A DNA stretch of 63,548 nt, filler included, from Octopus bimaculoides (lineage: Eukaryota), in NCBI RefSeq assembly GCF_001194135.2. It is 6 parts of 6 records of this genome, joined end to end, with 100 filler letters (N's around TTAATTAATTAA, not from the genome) between each part and the next. Parts side by side here need not be neighbours in the genome. Positions count along the whole stretch, not along the records: positions 1 to 17,007 come from NC_068987.1; positions 17,108 to 32,913 come from NC_068996.1; positions 33,014 to 43,310 come from NC_068983.1; positions 43,411 to 49,641 come from NC_068993.1; positions 49,742 to 59,248 come from NC_068998.1; positions 59,349 to 63,548 come from NC_068991.1. One strand, 5' to 3'. Numbering within the stretch: position 1 is the stretch's first letter; each line of letters begins with the position of its first letter. Shown here piece after piece: positions 11,401-63,405 of the stretch. Under the pieces are notes generated by a model, which ran no database searches, was not told the DNA's origin, and saw nothing but the letters and a program-made list of their open reading frames with translations. A program made the translations under genes and the position numbers.

Positions 11401-14194
11401 ATATGTGCGATGTTTATCCAGTTACTATTTATAGGTGGTACTTAACTATTTAAAAATCTGTCGTATTGTACAATGGATAAAGTCTGTGTGTGTGTGTATG
11501 CGCACCTGCTCACGTATATCTCAAAAGTTTTAGTTATTGAAATCAATCAATATCTTGGTATGTAACCTACATATACCTACGTGTGTATGTGTGTGTATAT
11601 GCTATACGCACACGTATACATACATATATTATTGGCTTAGCATTTGACCCTAAAACTCCTGATGGGATCGTTGGGGTGCCTTCATGACATTTAAACCGAG
11701 CGGTTTCTTCGATAGAGAGGGTGAGAGATTGTGTGAGTGTGAAAAGGACAGTAAGGAGAGACAGAGAGCGGGGGGAGAGAGAAAACAATCTCAATACCGA
11801 ATGGATTAAAAAGCTAAACTGCTCTTTCTGGGATTTGAAATCAGAGCGTGGAGACCAGAACGAAGGCTGGCCAGCATGCGATGTATGGGAGCTCTAGCGA
11901 TTCTGTCAGTTTGGCGCTTTATTATTGATTATATATATATATATATATATACACATACATACATACAGAGAGAAAAGAGACATACTTTTATATTGATGGG
12001 CAGTATATTCCTGATGGTCTGGTCTATAGCCGGTCAAAAAGTTACAATTGGTTTCGCGTCTGTTAACTGCACTTGGCGATACTGACAATCAAGTAACTTT
12101 CTGACCGGCTATATGCCATTACCAGGAATATTCTATTCGACACTATAAAAGTATAATCGCTTAGATTCTGTTTTCCTCTGACTTAAGGATAAATGATCAA
12201 TCATATATATATATATATATATAATCTTTGGTCGAAACATATCTAAGTTATATACGATTGATCAGTTATCTTTATATATATATATATATATTGATTGATT
12301 TATGATGATCAATTTTAAGTGGAAAATTATCCTAAACAATCGGAATTGAAATTTTGAAACGTGGAGTTTGTCCCCCCCACTACANNNNNNNNNNNNNNNN
12401 NNNNNNNNNNNNNNNNNNNNNNNNNNNNNNNNNNNNNNNNNNNNNNNNGTGTTTTTTTATTTATTATTTTTCGTTTTATCTTTTTCTTTTTTTTTATGAG
12501 GGGGTGGTGCGAGAAGTCGAGGCAGAATCTGAGTCTCGGAAGTTGATAAATAGAAATTTGAAAAAATTCATCAAACTATATATAACAAGAAAGAAAAAAA
12601 AAAAACGGAACCGGGTGTAGAGGAAGGCTGTTTGGACATTGCTGAATAAGTCTCATTACAAATTTTTCTAGTTTCAGTTTATAATCACAAACTGAAAGCG
12701 CGACATATATATGTGTATATCAGTGTGTATGTATTTGTGTTTATATATTTTTGTGTATATATATATATGTATGTGTACATATGTATGAATATATATATAT
12801 ATATGTGTGTGTGTGTTTGCATATTGTGTATGTCTATATATGTGTACATATATGTATGTACGTGTACGTTTGTATGTGTATAAATATATATGTACATGTA
12901 TCAATGTGTTTTTATATATATATCGATGTATTTATGTATGTATATGTATGTATTGATGTATCTATGTGTGTATCTGTATATATATAGATATGTACATGTA
13001 TCTGTACATGCATATATATATTTGTGTATGTATGTATATTTATGGGAGTATATATATATATATATATATATATATATATATATATATATATATATGTATA
13101 TTTATGGGTGAGTGTGTGTATATATATATATATATATGGGTATATATATATAAAATCTCAGGTGTGTGTGTAACTTCTGCATAATTAAATGTTACGTAAA
13201 GTCTAGTTCTCTTTTGCCTGTTTTTTTTTTTTTTTGCCGATTAAAAGATTTCTAACAATTCCAAGAGATGATTGAACGAAACCATCTTCCGAGTAATTTG
13301 TGTACCTGTTAAAGATATTTGACATCTAATATATAAATATATATTGGAACCACGTGGCTTCAGTTTCTGTACCACCTTGCGGCACATTTGATTGAGTCCC
13401 ACTGCTGTAAGCCCCCGGGCTATATATATACATATATCCATTGGTCACTCTGAGACCGGACATAGACTCAACTGCATATAAATAATGATATGATGTGTGT
13501 GTGTGTATTTTTATGTCTGTACATAAGTGTGTGGGTAACTCGAGGTGTGTATGTATGGATGTGTGCGTGTTTATAAACATTGACGGGTATATAGGGGTAC
13601 CTATATTTACTGATATGTGTAAGAAAGCGATGTGTGTGTCTGTGTGTTGTTACGATTTTGATGTCTCTTCTGGCTCTTTCAGTTCTGAGTTCAAATCTTG
13701 TCGAGGTCAACTTTCGGGGTCGATAGAATGAAATACTACTTCATAACTGAGGCCCTTTTTTAGCTCCTTTGCACTTATCATCACCATTTTCACGTCCACT
13801 TTAATATGTACATGTTTACATATAGATATGCACACGCGTATAACATTGATGGATGTTTAAGATCTTAAATAATGATGATAGATACACGCATGTATAAAGC
13901 ATATATATGAATAGACATATACACACACATATATATATATATACACACATGTGTATGTAGAACTATATATAGGTACATATATACGTATTTAGGCATACTT
14001 CAGAACTATAACCGCACGTGAATTGTTTGGGATTTTTTCCTCATTTTTCCTTTATTTTGTGATTTTTCTCTCTCCGACGAAGAGCTATGCTCGAAGCGTT
14101 AACAACTCTCTCCTTTCACCGAGCGTCGAATTAATATATTTCTTGTGCACGTCCTCACGTTCATTTATATATATATATATATATATATAGGCAA

Positions 14195-14525
14195 AGGGGT
14201 GGGTGTGTGGTAAGAAGCTTGCTTCCCAACGACATGGTTCCGGGTTCAGTCCCACTGCGTAGCACGTTGGGTAAGGGTCTTGTACTAGAGCCTCGAACCG
14301 AAGAAAGCGTGGTGAGTGTATTTAGTAGCTGGAAACTGAAAGAAGCCTGACGTGTATACACACACACACACAGAAACCAGTGTTGGTGTGTTTACTTTTC
14401 CGTAACCTAGCGGTTTGGCAAAAGAGAACGATAGAATAATTCCTGGGGGTCAATTTGTTCCACTAAAGGCAGTGCTCCAGCATGACCACAGTCATATGAC
14501 TGAAACAAGTAAAAGAATAAAATTA
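14195..14525 (+). mobile_element. SINE family A copy
   Basis: Head GTGTGGTAAGAAGCTTGCTTCCCAAC...GGTTCAGTCCC; tail GAAACAAGTAAAAGAATAAA. Confidence 0.75.
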
Positions 14526-15549
14526 TACATACATATATATGTATGTATATGTTTGTGTGTGTGTGTGTGTGTGTATATATATATATATATATATGTGCGG
14601 GTGACACGTAAAAGCACCCACTACACTCTGAGTGGTTGGCGTTAGGAAGGGCATCCAGCTGTAGAAACTCTGCCAAATCAGACTGGAGCCTGGTGTTGCC
14701 ATCCGGTTTCACCAGTCCTCGGTCAAATCGTCCAACCCATGCTAGCATGGAAAGCGGACGTTAAACGATGATGATGACAGATAGATTCACACACATGCTC
14801 ACATAGATCTACTGAGGTACGTACACATACCATAAGCTCAAAACATCAAATACTATCTTAATTTTTCTGGAGTGTCAAACTAATACACTTTGATTGTTGT
14901 TCTATCACCTGTCCTGTCTTTTCTATGATTGTGATTCATATACGTGTGTGTGTATATGTGTGTGTATATATATATATATATATATATATATATATATATA
15001 TATATATATATATATACATACACACATACATACACACTCACAGATTTAAAAGTTTAAAAAAAATATTGGATACAGTCACAATATTCAAAGAGAGATTTTT
15101 TTCAAAGTAAACTATTTTTTAAAAATTATAGAGAAGCCAGAATGTCAGACGTTTTTGTAAGACATTTTTGTGCTTTTGGTCAGTTTTTGAAAAACGTGTT
15201 CTGGATTAAATATAAACACACACACACACACACATTCTTTTATAGGTAGATATCTGCATGATATAAGTAAAGATGCTACAAATCCTTCGTAATGTATAAA
15301 CTCCTTAAGCATGATTAACCTGACAAGAATTAAGATCTCAGCGGACGATGACTCGAAAAATAGCAGGATACAAACAATTCTCAGGAAACAACACACACAA
15401 AACCAGCCATCGCATGTATACATTATCAACAGCCTAATGGGTATCATAATGGTTTTTACAGGTGTATATAACTATGGTTTTGCATGAGTTTGTCTATCTA
15501 TATACAGATGTACGTATATTTAAGAGTATGAATGGATATATATATATGT

Positions 15550-62298: not shown

Positions 62299-63369
62299 TT
62301 TTATGTTATTTTTATATTAGTTTTGACTTAGCCAGACCATACAGGCTAGCAGTGTCTTTTGCTGCAGTGTCTTAAAGAAAGAAAGAAAGAAAGAAAGACA
62401 GAAAAAGAAAAAAAAATTTAAATGAATAAAGAAATGTATCTCTCACTCTCTCTCTCTCTCTCTTTCTATCTCCCCTCTGTCTCTCTTTTTCTCTTTCTGT
62501 CTCTAATCTGTGACAATTGTGTCGCCTGTCTATGAGTTCAAGGTGTTTTAACTTCCGGTGCTTTGATAGAGTAATCTCAACTACTCCGTATCGCAGCCTT
62601 CTAGCAAGCACACTCACAGTTGACCATATATGTATATACATACATAGGGAGTTCTACATGCATGTGTGCATGGAATTTGCAATTAACTTTGTTTTTAGTT
62701 TGTTTTTAATGTGGTAAAAACCACACACAACGACCCAAAATATCACACACGTTTATTGCTCGAAATACGGACTAGATAAACAGCCGACAACTGATGAAGG
62801 GTCGTTCCTTGTATCGCTTGTCTTGTTTTACATTTGTTTCTTTCGTTCTTTGCACAAAAAACCCTTATTTCATGTCCTCATAATTCGTATTAATTGTTGT
62901 TTATGTTTTGTGACGTCCTGTACCCACATATGCATATGTATATACATAGACATGTAACGTATACGTTACATGTCTAAGAACACTGACTACACTAATGACT
63001 AATGAGCCCGGCTTTAAACATACATAGACGCCATCATATATATATATATAATACATATATACGTGTGTGTGTATGTATATATGTATATATATATATATGT
63101 ATGCACACACACATACATACATATACAAGCAAGCATACATATATCTATACGCATATATATATACAGGTGCATATGCATTTCTGTATACACACACATACAT
63201 ATATATACACACACTCTCTCGCATACAGACGCACGCGCACCTTCGTTTTGAGATCACCAGTACTTTATTATCTCCCCTTCTTCCGAGCTCCCCTGTCCGG
63301 CCATCACCATGATTGACCGCTAGCTACTAAAGCTTTTTTTTTCTTCTCTTTGTTTATTTTCGCCTGTTC

Positions 63370-63405
63370 CCTTCTGTTGAAGAGCGTAGGCTCGAAATGT
63401 AAAAG
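63370..63405 (+). ncRNA. Minimal hammerhead-like motif, CTGTTGA core
   Basis: CTGTTGA-A-GAGC-gtag-GCTC-GAAA-TG-TA-aaag; second copy at 27395-27430 (-) with cttt/aaag stem I and GTC. Confidence 0.4.

What the first reader, a model, noticed from the sequence alone, without database searches (positions are those of the whole stretch)
14074..63405. At least four hammerhead-like repeat families, each with a different core substitution
Seen: four core types in small dispersed repeats next to microsatellites - GUGAACA (23624, 37182), CCGACGA (14074, 51414), CUGUUGA (27395, 63370) and UUGACGA (43967) - each with a stem II-type hairpin before GAAA (GAAG in two copies, weakened stem in one). Three PLE coding fragments and further relics (11686, 32518, 53893) lie in the same window. 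Established: PLEs and retrozymes carry hammerheads in their terminal repeats. Inference: this genome hosts a large, diversified population of non-autonomous PLE-derived or retrozyme-like RNAs exploring non-canonical cores.
Basis: partly seen in the sequence, partly recalled or inferred. Interest (0 to 1): 0.75.

Follow-up and report, generated by a model that had tools for sequence, protein, structure and literature searches.

The report
Penelope hammerheads with lineage-fixed core changes
Three abundant repeat families in this animal genome carry small hammerhead-shaped RNA motifs with family-wide changes in normally fixed core letters (one a clean base-pair swap); two are shown to be the ends of protein-coding Penelope-type jumping genes and the third likely is, the fourth reported core looks like decay of single copies, and whether the variants cut RNA is untested.

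Summary
The motifs are at the stated places, but single copies do not beat shuffles; the family level decides. Three cores are family-wide: G3-C8 (family C, 577 exact hits; 91 of the first 100), A6U with a freely varying position 7 (family B, 3,792 hits), and U4C (family A subfamilies, 38 of the first 100 of 1,210 hits, beside 55 canonical sisters). UUGACGA is a minority state of a canonical family. B and C are not retrozymes: both lie 0.55-1.3 kb behind an RT plus GIY-YIG gene of Penelope-like elements, and C has inverted copies with a tail on one end only (21 of 22). No tandem arrays, circle joints or read ends at the cut site were seen. Short C copies start just upstream of the intact motif (14 of 30), none at the cut site, matching published in vitro work in which insertion used uncut RNA. 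Best reading: pLTR hammerheads whose cutting is weak or dispensable, so core variants became fixed. The scan noted G3-C8 before in other genomes; the A6U and U4C series and the gene linkage were tested here. Cleavage is untested.

The parts
13997..14162 (+). Family A copy; core CCGACGA (U4C) at 14074-14080, extra A, stem II GAGC/GCUC, decayed A15.1G
51344..51483 (-). Family A copy; core CCGACGA at 51440-51434, ACGU palindrome, U17 at 51414, 2-3 bp stem I
27313..27432 (-). Family B copy; core CUGUUGA (A6U) at 27426-27420, stem II damaged in this copy, C17
63207..63521 (+). Family B copy, 3' end of a Neptune-type PLE; core CUGUUGA at 63374-63380, palindrome decayed to AUGU, ends in (TA)n
23481..23684 (-). 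Family C copy with 65-nt tail; core GUGAACA (G3-C8) at 23667-23661, extra G, 5-bp stem II, AAUAUU palindrome, U17 at 23631, 7-8 bp stem I
37037..37273 (-). Older family C copy (G3 at 37223) with a short inverted piece at 37244-37273
43866..44196 (-). Family D copy with an inverted piece; UUGACGA at 44017-44011 is a minority state of a family with canonical CUGAYGA core, 4-bp stem III, GUC triplet and 7-bp stem I
23690..24830 (.). Broken PLE reverse-transcriptase fragments in two orientations, Hydra-type by eye; a different family from C, only adjacent to it
54050..54520 (-). Broken PLE C-terminal endonuclease fragment (Hydra-type, label recalled)
53893..53945 (-). Decayed hammerhead about 135 nt behind that endonuclease; core one base short (CUGCGA), stem III ACC/GGU, GUC triplet
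60760..61750 (-). Broken Neptune-type PLE: RT thumb, Cys linker, GIY-YIG
59470..59524 (-).
32512..32582 (+). Hammerhead with canonical CUGAUGA core and long stem II, in another repeat family

Best explanation
These are minimal type I hammerhead motifs in the terminal repeats (pLTRs) of Penelope-like retrotransposons, shown for families B and C and likely for A and D, and three lineages carry fixed core changes (G3-C8, A6U, U4C), likely because cutting is weak, protein- or dimer-dependent and not needed for insertion. Shown: family-wide cores; canonical sister subfamilies; an RT plus GIY-YIG gene upstream of B and C; inverted copies with a one-sided tail; 5' ends of short copies just upstream of the intact motif. 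Inferred: RNA from a pLTR promoter is reverse-transcribed uncut from two internal start sites, giving thousands of 150-300 nt stumps. Also inferred: selection keeps the fold (stems, palindrome, the 3-8 pair, G5, A9, GAAA) while positions 4, 6, 7 and 17 drift or are tuned down. Predicted: G3-C8 keeps reduced activity; U4C and A6U are more strongly attenuated.
For: C: G3-C8 in 91 of the first 100 of 577 hits, C3 in none; 15 of 16 scored cores in a sample chosen by the 3' flank only; monomer fold gives stems I and II, z -2.0. B: U6 in 96 and A6 in 0 of the first 100, position 7 U39/G35/C14/A12. A group: 55 canonical and 38 U4C of the first 100; flank-chosen sample C3, G5, G8 25 of 25, A9 24, U4 16, C4 8. 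Stem I pair 4 covaries among subfamilies: C-G 56 of 71, G-C 11 of 16 and 6 of 6, A-U 6 of 8. Gene linkage: B motif downstream on the sense strand in 9 of 30 endonuclease loci, none antisense; C in 7 of 30, plus 3 inverted upstream; both counts include the query locus. Tail on exactly one end in 21 of 22 gap-free inverted pairs. 14 of 30 C copies start within 6 nt of one site upstream of stem I, none at the cut site. PMC11167929 (parts 1-2 of 4 read): in an anole PLE, C3G/G8C partly restores cleavage, cleavage needs the protein, dead mutants still insert, and no reads end at the cut site.
Against: No cleavage data for any variant. C has a UUU triplet. The U4C/UAU subfamily, which holds both window A copies, has only a 3-bp stem I (C-C at pair 4 in 19 of 33). 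One canonical-core clade has G17 (4 of 8), which is inhibitory in minimal ribozymes (PMC3884650, passages). Lowest-energy folds of A and B monomers, and of all four tested dimers, are not the active hammerhead. The patterns fixed C3, G5, G8 and A9, so only the flank-chosen and BLAST samples test those positions. Pfam hits for RT and GIY-YIG are below the curated cut-offs. No coding partner was found for A or D. No C3-G8 sister of C was found here, so the swap is judged against the general consensus.
Confidence: 0.7

Rival explanations
1. The variant motifs, above all A6U and U4C, no longer cut at all; the hammerhead shape is kept as a binding or pairing element for the PLE protein.
For: Different damaging changes (U4C, A6U, U4A, G17) are each common in separate successful subfamilies. 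Stem I is only 3-4 bp and A-U rich. Insertion in vitro does not need cleavage (PMC11167929). Copies begin upstream of the uncut motif.
Against: The changes that spread follow the catalytic rules better than a plain hairpin would need: position 7 is free, H17 is mostly A/C/U, and the 3-8 pair is kept by a double change in C. Natural U4C and A6C variants keep some activity (PMC3088659, section and passages).
Confidence: 0.18
2. All three variants are efficient ribozymes, rescued by the PLE protein or by unseen tertiary contacts, and cutting is needed in vivo.
For: B is the most abundant of the families counted and keeps a covarying 4-bp stem I. C is young (best 30 hits 94-100% identical) with intact stems. 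Protein-assisted cleavage is published for one PLE (PMC11167929).
Against: No loop contacts are evident. Changes at A6 give low activity in tested natural cases (PMC3088659). No genomic copy begins at the cut site.
Confidence: 0.07
3. One reading: a population of non-autonomous, retrozyme-like small RNAs that self-cleave and circularise.
For: Most copies are 150-300 nt and non-coding. 5' ends pile up at fixed sites, so short copies could be re-copied on their own. No gene was found for A or D.
Against: B and C run on into coding PLEs. Direct repeats were found in 1 of 90 A, 2 of 60 B and 1 of 90 C loci, with no longer arrays, and several flank assembly gaps. No circle joint or end pile-up in 3 RNA runs (weak test).
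Confidence: 0.04
4. The odd cores are random decay of single copies or chance matches.
For: True for UUGACGA, the two GAAG copies and probably 11686; the window-level descriptor does not beat shuffles.
Against: A, B and C cores are majority states in hundreds to thousands of copies, with zero control hits.
Confidence: 0.01

Closest known systems
Minimal type I hammerheads of metazoan Penelope-like elements (Cervera and de la Pena 2014, PMC4209133; parts 1-2 of 4 read)
   Same: Extra base after A9, G10.1-C11.1, palindromic helix III, short stem I, mostly solo copies from truncated PLEs, many consensus families per genome, one known core covariation (U3-A8).
   Different: The text read reports U3-A8 but not G3-C8, A6U or U4C as family consensus; its supplements were not read.
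Poseidon element of Anolis carolinensis, PAc (Frangieh et al. 2024, PMC11167929; parts 1-2 of 4 read)
   Same: pLTR hammerhead, optional tail from two reverse-transcription starts, uncut RNA as template, no read ends at the cut site.
   Different: There C3G/G8C is an engineered double mutant; here it is the natural fixed state. The hammerhead there overlaps the ORF start; here the ATG before C's motif opens only about 21 codons.
Natural hammerhead core variants (Perreault et al. 2011, PMC3088659; section 8 and passages read)
   Same: U3-A8, A6C and a viroid U4C variant exist in nature, with reduced activity where tested.
   Different: Those are rare single examples; here the variants are fixed in families of hundreds to thousands of copies. 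G3-C8 and A6U are not in the text read; its figures were not seen.
EN+ PLE clades Neptune, Nematis and Hydra (Craig et al. 2021, PMC8557442; passages and supplement part 54 read; Arkhipova et al. 2013, PMC3846280, passages)
   Same: C-terminal GIY-YIG with a Cys linker, (TA)n targets, inverted 5'-truncated pLTR, one-sided tail. B resembles Neptune and C has a short Nematis-like linker, both by eye.
   Different: C's tail is about 65 nt, not 30-40. No tree was built to place the clades.
Metazoan non-LTR retrozymes (Cervera and de la Pena 2020, PMC7229834, passages; bioRxiv 10.64898/2026.07.22.740005, part 1 of 5)
   Same: Small, type I hammerhead, PLE-related.
   Different: Retrozymes are non-coding tandem arrays with canonical motifs and circular RNAs; none of that was found for B or C.

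Membership tests
PLE minimal hammerhead | Canonical core C3 U4 G5 A6 N7 G8 A9, G12 A13 A14 | tested here: not met
   A (U4C subfamilies), B (A6U) and C (G3-C8) deviate; D and A's sister subfamilies meet it. A, B and C are filed as variants, not canonical members.
PLE minimal hammerhead | Watson-Crick pair between positions 3 and 8 | tested here: met
   C-G in A, B, D; G-C in C (91 of 100); U-A in the 59518 family (4 of 5 homologues).
PLE minimal hammerhead | Extra base after A9 and G10.1-C11.1 closing stem II | tested here: met
   A, B, C; D has G10.1-C11.1 without the extra base.
PLE minimal hammerhead | Palindromic helix III, A15.1/U16.1 and H17 | tested here: met
   ACGU in A and B, AAUAUU in C; H17 is A/C/U except one G17 clade.
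PLE minimal hammerhead | Stem I of 4-5 bp | tested here: inconclusive
   C 7-8 bp, D 7 bp, B and canonical A sisters 4 bp with covariation, U4C/UAU subfamily only 3 bp.
PLE minimal hammerhead | Self-cleavage (dimeric or protein-assisted) | not testable with these tools
   No read-end pile-up in 3 RNA runs, but the same blank was reported for a PLE ribozyme that cuts in vitro (PMC11167929).
EN+ Penelope-like element | RT plus C-terminal GIY-YIG ORF upstream of the pLTR (families B, C) | tested here: met
   9 of 30 and 7 of 30 loci; RT and endonuclease motifs; Pfam RVT_1 hits below cut-off.
EN+ Penelope-like element | Same ORF linkage for families A and D | tested here: inconclusive
   No same-strand linked ORF within about 1.5 kb; A is homologous to B, and long copies are rare.
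EN+ Penelope-like element | Inverted 5' copy with tail at one end only | tested here: met
   C: 23 pairs in 90 loci, tail on one end in 21 of 22 gap-free pairs; D shows inverted copies. Such pairs were not evident for A or B.
EN+ Penelope-like element | Clade placement by RT phylogeny | not tested
   Neptune, Nematis-like and Hydra labels rest on comparison by eye with the alignment.
Non-LTR retrozyme | Tandem arrays of 150-450 nt units | tested here: not met
   At most pairs, 4 among 240 loci scanned, some across assembly gaps.
Non-LTR retrozyme | No protein-coding capacity in the element | tested here: not met
   B and C continue into PLE ORFs.
Non-LTR retrozyme | Abundant unit-length circular RNA | tested here: inconclusive
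   No supported unit-length go-back joint in 3 runs read at about 6% depth; such libraries may lose circles.

The most novel reading that the evidence does not exclude
One genome holds a natural series of working hammerhead cores (C3-G8, U3-A8, G3-C8, A6U, U4C) in coding Penelope lineages. The A6U core, normally near-dead, is active with its element's protein, so PLE proteins relax the core rules and standard searches miss whole high-copy ribozyme families.
Probability: 0.2. Interest if true: 0.72.

Novelty: new variant of a known kind. Interest (0 to 1): 0.45.

Why it matters
Why Penelope-like elements keep hammerheads is open: cutting was not needed for insertion in the one in vitro system. 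Here closely related subfamilies with the same stem II and palindrome carry canonical, U4C, A6U or G17 states, and all have spread. That gives a ready-made matched series to test whether cutting matters. A natural, fixed G3-C8 pair also confirms by evolution a tertiary pair known from structure and engineered mutants. Searches with canonical descriptors would miss thousands of such motifs.

Tried and rejected
Rfam scan: the 150 best of 353 hits listed were microsatellite-driven, with no hammerhead family among them. Relaxed descriptor on the window: not above shuffles. UUGACGA as a family core: rejected; a small U3 subfamily cannot be excluded. Family C as the pLTR of the Hydra-type RT beside it at 23690: rejected, C's gene is another family. 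Family B as part of the window's Neptune element at 60760-61750: rejected, that element has its own hammerhead at 59518. ORF relics upstream of B in L034 and L052 share no UTR with B and were treated as chance neighbours. Close direct pairs in L183-L185 are near-identical across N gaps, probably assembly duplications; the 6-kb pairs L181 and L182 hold no ORF. 5' ends at N17: none of 30. Run search: no RNA holder listed on record. Dimer cofolds did not give the active fold. Hammerheads behind 50 Neptune endonuclease loci were mostly hidden by gaps. The protein atlas gave no answer. Not held: Lunse et al. on small PLE hammerhead variants (PMC5785218), Przybilski and Hammann 2007 (PMC1986816), Nelson and Uhlenbeck 2008 (PMC2271363). 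The first may already list these cores. Literature searches for natural G3-C8, A6U or octopus hammerheads returned only engineered G3-C8 and no hammerhead A6U in the papers opened; most supplements were not read.
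Full report
Setting. The window is a pack of six stretches from a 2.34-Gb, microsatellite-rich animal genome. It looks like an octopus genome, but that label is recalled and echoed by earlier AI notes; it was not tested here.

Observation. All cited motifs are in the sequence. Taken singly they are weak. A relaxed descriptor gave 15 hits against about 6.4 per shuffle, with chance hits scoring as high. Only the 23624 and 43967 copies fold better than most shuffles (z about -2.0). 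I therefore tested each motif at family level in the genome.

Family C (23624, 37182). The best 30 hits are 94-100% identical to the query. The motif has a 7-8 bp stem I, core GUGAACA, an extra G, a 5-bp stem II closed by G-C, GAA, the palindrome AAUAUU and U17. With positions 3 and 8 left free, the pattern has 577 exact hits and 0 control hits. Among the first 100 listed, counted by hand, 91 are G3-C8, 5 G3-U8, 2 A3, 1 A8, 1 G8 and none C3. In 30 loci chosen by the 3' flank only, 15 of 16 scored cores are G3-C8. The swap is therefore the lineage state and keeps the known 3-8 pair.

C is a coding element. Long copies run about 900 nt upstream through simple repeats into an ORF end. A search with that peptide gave 30 loci: 7 have the C motif 795-1,242 nt downstream on the sense strand, counting the query locus, and 3 have an inverted copy upstream; many others have gaps. 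[quoted passage not shown] Pfam RVT_1 hits at E 0.002, below cut-off. Among 90 C loci there are 23 head-to-head pairs, and 21 of the 22 without gaps carry the 65-nt tail on one end only. That is the PLE signature described in PMC8557442 and PMC3846280 (passages read).

Families A and B are one superfamily. They share stem II GAGC/GCUC, an extra A and GAAACGU. With a 4-nt loop (B) there are 3,792 hits. In the first 100, position 6 is U in 96, C in 4 and A in none; position 7 is U 39, G 35, C 14, A 12; position 4 is U 93, A 6, C 1 (hand count). With a 3-nt loop (A group) there are 1,210 hits; 55 of the first 100 are canonical CUGANGA and 38 are U4C (hand count). A tree of 143 copies built from flanks alone groups the core states into subfamilies.

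Those two patterns fixed C3, G5, G8 and A9, so I drew 30 loci by the 3' flank instead. Five were truncated within the motif. In the other 25, C3, G5 and G8 are invariant, A9 is kept in 24, position 4 is U 16, C 8, G 1, and 14 are canonical. The fourth pair of stem I covaries between subfamilies: C-G in B (56 of 71), G-C in the canonical UUU-loop group (11 of 16) and its U4C branch (6 of 6), A-U in a UCC-loop group (6 of 8). It is a C-C mismatch in the U4C/UAU subfamily (19 of 33) that holds both window copies. One canonical-core clade has G17 (4 of 8).

B is also coding. Two long copies share 1,171 nt at 80% of an RT plus GIY-YIG ORF followed by the B 3' region. Of 30 loci found with that endonuclease, 9 have the B motif 554-1,275 nt downstream on the sense strand, counting the query locus, and none antisense. 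By eye the protein matches the Neptune rows of the alignment. No linked ORF was found for A; its status rests on homology to B.

Family D (43967). The majority is a canonical type I hammerhead with a 7-bp stem I, 4-bp stem III and GUC triplet. Of 25 copies scored, 14 read CUGAYGA and 4 UUGACGA, including the query. The fourth core type is not a family state.

Other relics. The three coding fragments are real: Hydra-type RT at 23690-24830, Hydra-type endonuclease at 54050-54520 with the decayed hammerhead at 53893 behind it, and a Neptune-type element at 60760-61750. That Neptune element has its own hammerhead at 59518; 4 of its 5 homologues read U3-A8. 32518 has a canonical core and homologues. 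11686 had none among the loci held and is not confirmed.

Retrozyme test. Direct repeats within 600 nt were found in 1 of 90 A, 2 of 60 B and 1 of 90 C loci, with no longer arrays. In three raw RNA runs, each read to about 6%, C drew 1,148-1,618 reads and the B/D stretch 1,594-2,528. First mates fell about equally on both strands, most reads ran on into unlike flanks, and there was no pile-up at the cut site and no supported circle joint. This fits passive transcription of scattered copies. It is a weak test: library strandedness is unknown, and PMC11167929 reports the same blank for a ribozyme that cuts in vitro.

5' ends. In the flank-chosen C sample, 14 of 30 copies start within 6 nt of one AG|ATG site about 13 nt before stem I (one of them limited by a gap). 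One extends beyond it, and none starts at the cut site. A and B show similar pile-ups: 26 of 71 at -80 to -68 from C3, and 13 of 30 within one short stretch (hand counts). The copied RNA therefore held an uncut motif. A promoter start or a splice acceptor could set these ends; both are inferences.

Mechanism. Frangieh et al. (PMC11167929, parts 1-2 read) showed for an anole PLE that the tail comes from two internal RT starts, that the hammerhead cuts only with the protein, that C3G/G8C partly restores cutting, and that dead mutants still insert. My data fit this. Coding PLEs scatter short pLTR stumps copied from uncut RNA. The hammerhead fold stays under selection, but cutting is weak or optional, so lineages have fixed G3-C8, A6U, U4C or G17. 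G3-C8 most likely still cuts slowly; A6U and U4C are more doubtful, given the low activity of tested A6 and U4 variants (PMC3088659). None of this activity was measured.

Novelty. The kind is known (PMC4209133). U3-A8, A6C and a viroid U4C are in print. My searches found G3-C8 only as an engineered mutant and no natural hammerhead A6U, but a key paper (PMC5785218) and most supplements could not be seen. The scan had noted G3-C8 in other genomes. A word look-up for the A6U/U4C series and a sequence look-up for B returned nothing.

Verdict. A new variant of a known kind: observation partly confirmed, retrozyme reading not supported, interest 0.45.

Noticed in passing
window 59470-59524 (-): A further hammerhead behind the Neptune-type ORF; 4 of 5 homologues have the U3-A8 core and a possible 4-bp stem III, while this copy has C3.
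   Followed up: partly
L071 1630-1650; window 23680-23690: Full-length C copies have CTAAC plus a pyrimidine run and CAG just before the site where most short copies begin: a splice acceptor or an initiator. All three families have an ATG at their 5' pile-up site.
   Followed up: partly
L237, L238, L241, L032: A subfamily with a canonical CUGAUGA core but G17 at the cut site.
   Followed up: partly
G000, listing: CAGUUGA (U4A on top of A6U) in 6 of the first 100 family B hits, possibly a doubly changed subfamily.
   Followed up: no
Runs labelled as four different organisms hold half or more of the sampled words of the family C stretch, so the family is probably shared by related species; only one of these contig sets was laid on it.
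   Followed up: partly
L183, L184, L185: Apparent tandem copies are near-identical duplicates on either side of N gaps, probably assembly artefacts.
   Followed up: yes
window 59600-59760 and 62010-62240: The Neptune-type element is flanked by an inverted copy of part of its 3' region.
   Followed up: partly
window 18653-19390, 25301-26057, 28939-29950: LINE-like RT fragments (label recalled from motifs).
   Followed up: no
window 20372-20926, 33016-33435, 38389-39121: Tc1/mariner-like transposase fragments (label recalled from motifs).
   Followed up: no
window 6078-6548 and 567-783: Two-copy tandem repeats of 239 nt and 115 nt.
   Followed up: no
L252, after the endonuclease ORF: Another hammerhead-like stretch with a CAGAUGA core (U4A) in a Neptune-type 3' region.
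   Followed up: no
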